A report, generated by a model, on 63,642 nt of DNA from an uncultured Candidatus Saccharibacteria bacterium (GCA_964481135.1 CAYZSW010000006.1:1-63642), not shown here, continued.

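What the first reader, a model, noticed from the sequence alone, without database searches (positions are those of the whole stretch)
11857..12045. A complete tRNA-Thr(CGU) nested inside the D-arm of a second tRNA-Thr(CGU)-like gene, clamped by GC-rich complementary arms
On the minus strand, 12045->12023 reads GCCCACT-TA-GCTT-TAATGGTA-GA, and 11909->11857 reads GC-A-ATTCC-TTCGTAA-GGAAG-AGGTT-ATTGG-TTCAAAT-CCAAT-AGTGGGC-T-CCA. Joined, these make a 76-nt cloverleaf with a perfect 7-bp acceptor stem, a restored D stem (GCTT/GAGC), a canonical T loop and anticodon CGT. The 113 nt between the two pieces have three parts. The first is a 21-nt arm, CCTGCCCGCCAGTCGCTTAGC. The second is an intact 75-nt tRNA-Thr(CGU) (11927..12001). 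The third is a 17-nt arm, GGCGCTTGGCAGACGGG. The arms can pair (CTGCC/GGCAG, CCAG/TTGG, CGC/GCG), so the inner tRNA sits in the loop of a GC-rich hairpin planted in the outer D stem. The inner and outer genes share only about two thirds of their positions, so this is not a simple recent duplication. I see three readings. (a) It is an intron-like or split-tRNA arrangement. RNase P/Z release of the inner tRNA would leave two outer halves held together by the GC clamp, which recalls archaeal split tRNAs but is not something I know from bacteria. (b) A palindromic element carrying a replacement tRNA-Thr inserted into and killed the resident gene. T instead of the near-invariant A at outer position 14 argues for decay. 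(c) It is an assembly chimera. The arm sequence resembles the CCTGTCYGCC / GGCRGACRGG core of the GC islands at 33.2 and 56.9 kb and the junction of the tRNA-Asp repeats.
Basis: partly seen in the sequence, partly recalled or inferred. Interest (0 to 1): 0.9.

Follow-up and report, generated by a model that had tools for sequence, protein, structure and literature searches.

The report, continued
Closest known systems
Integrative elements (tyrosine-integrase islands and prophages) that insert into tRNA genes and bring a copy of the displaced tRNA segment
   Same: They target a tRNA gene and compensate for the damage by supplying tRNA sequence. They leave tRNA fragments as footprints and drive locus turnover.
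   Different: Those elements duplicate only the att core (usually the 3' end), are kilobases long and encode an integrase. Here a whole independent tRNA gene of another allele is supplied. No segment is duplicated, the insert is 113 bp, the site is the D stem, and no integrase lies in or next to it.
Free-standing GIY-YIG homing endonucleases in tRNA gene clusters (phage T4 SegB; PMC2330249)
   Same: A selfish cassette spreads into a tRNA gene region by break-and-repair, with co-conversion of flanks. Relatives L019, L021 and L035 have a GIY-YIG ORF fused to tRNA-Thr copies at this very locus.
   Different: The window cassette has no ORF at all, and tblastn finds no GIY-YIG gene in the 63.6-kb window. 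The GIY-YIG-linked relics carry a different hairpin (CCCCGCC..GGCGGGG) at a different position, the D loop.
Archaeal non-canonical tRNA introns and split or permuted tRNAs (BHB-dependent; PMC3218864, PMC4090602)
   Same: A tRNA gene is interrupted outside the anticodon loop, including D-arm positions. GC-rich complementary sequences bring the halves together.
   Different: No BHB motif is present. The organism is bacterial. The insert contains a full tRNA of the same anticodon. Related occurrences are dead relics.
Insertion sequences and intervening sequences in rRNA genes of CPR and other bacteria (PMC11270868)
   Same: Short (<200 bp), ORF-less, uncharacterised insertions in structural RNA genes of the same bacterial group, often placed at stems. 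Some longer ones carry GIY-YIG genes.
   Different: Those are in 16S/23S rRNA, where excision without religation is tolerated. tRNA is not mentioned in that paper. No cargo RNA gene is described there.
REP, MITE and Rickettsia-palindromic-element type dispersed palindromes (own knowledge, not tested against those families)
   Same: Short GC-rich imperfect palindromes, several copies per genome, with presence/absence polymorphism between relatives and insertion into genes.
   Different: No target-site duplication. One copy carries a complete tRNA gene in its loop and sits in a gene of the same function. No sequence relationship to a named family was found; Rfam gave nothing.

Membership tests
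Archaeal-type (BHB) tRNA intron / split tRNA | Bulge-helix-bulge motif: two 3-nt bulges carrying the splice sites, separated by a 4-bp helix. | tested here: not met
   All four cleavage registers were tried. The central helix reaches at most 2/4 pairs and the flanking helices 0-3/4.
Archaeal-type (BHB) tRNA intron / split tRNA | A splicing endonuclease (EndA) and an RNA ligase (RtcB) in the genome. | not testable with these tools
   Only a 63.6-kb window is available, and the rest of the genome could not be fetched.
Group I (or II) self-splicing intron in a tRNA gene | A conserved ribozyme core detectable by Rfam intron models. Bacterial tRNA group I introns insert in the anticodon loop. | tested here: not met
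   No intron family was found at gathering score or at E<=10. The insert is 113 nt, 75 of them a tRNA. The site is the D stem, positions 23|24.
Integrase-mediated tRNA-targeting island | A direct repeat of a tRNA segment (attL/attR) flanking the insert, and an integrase gene. | tested here: not met
   Removing the 113 nt restores the tRNA exactly, with no duplicated segment. The insert has no ORF, and the neighbouring genes are DUF192 and a 99-aa membrane protein.
DDE-transposon-derived MITE | Terminal inverted repeats. | tested here: inconclusive
   The arms are imperfect inverted repeats (14 bp with 3 interruptions). In the window this is no better than composition-matched shuffles (266/1000), but it is significant in the homologues L113 and L092.
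DDE-transposon-derived MITE | Target-site duplication. | tested here: not met
   The junctions GGTAGA|CC... and ...GGG|GCAAT rejoin to the uninterrupted L092 sequence GGTAGAGCAAT with no extra bases.
DDE-transposon-derived MITE | Multiple dispersed copies with presence/absence polymorphism. | tested here: met
   Family members are at 33222-33260 and 56905-39. Island C is absent from the orthologous spacer in L092. The motif occurs 10 times against 1.4 expected.
Homing-endonuclease cassette | An endonuclease ORF inside or beside the mobile segment. | tested here: not met
   There is no ORF in the insert, and tblastn with the relatives' GIY-YIG proteins finds nothing in the window. GIY-YIG ORFs (PF01541) do flank tRNA-Thr in L019, L021 and L035.
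Homing-endonuclease cassette | The same insertion site in different alleles, with empty-site alleles in relatives. | tested here: met
   The site AGA|GCAAT is used in the GCCCACU-type allele (window) and the GCCAATG-type allele (L092 relic). A near-identical site is used in the GCCGAAG-type allele (L113). The empty site is the intact L092 tRNA.
Functional bacterial tRNA (outer gene) | A contiguous cloverleaf that passes tRNA models. | tested here: not met
   As encoded, neither ARAGORN (also with the intron option) nor Rfam calls it; the 3' piece alone scores 26.5 bits, below the gathering score of 29. Only the in-silico join passes.
Functional bacterial tRNA (inner gene) | A cloverleaf that passes tRNA models, an encoded CCA and the anticodon CGU. 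| tested here: met
   ARAGORN call and Rfam score of 71 bits. The near-identical allele is the only tRNA-Thr(CGU) found in the L087 locus.

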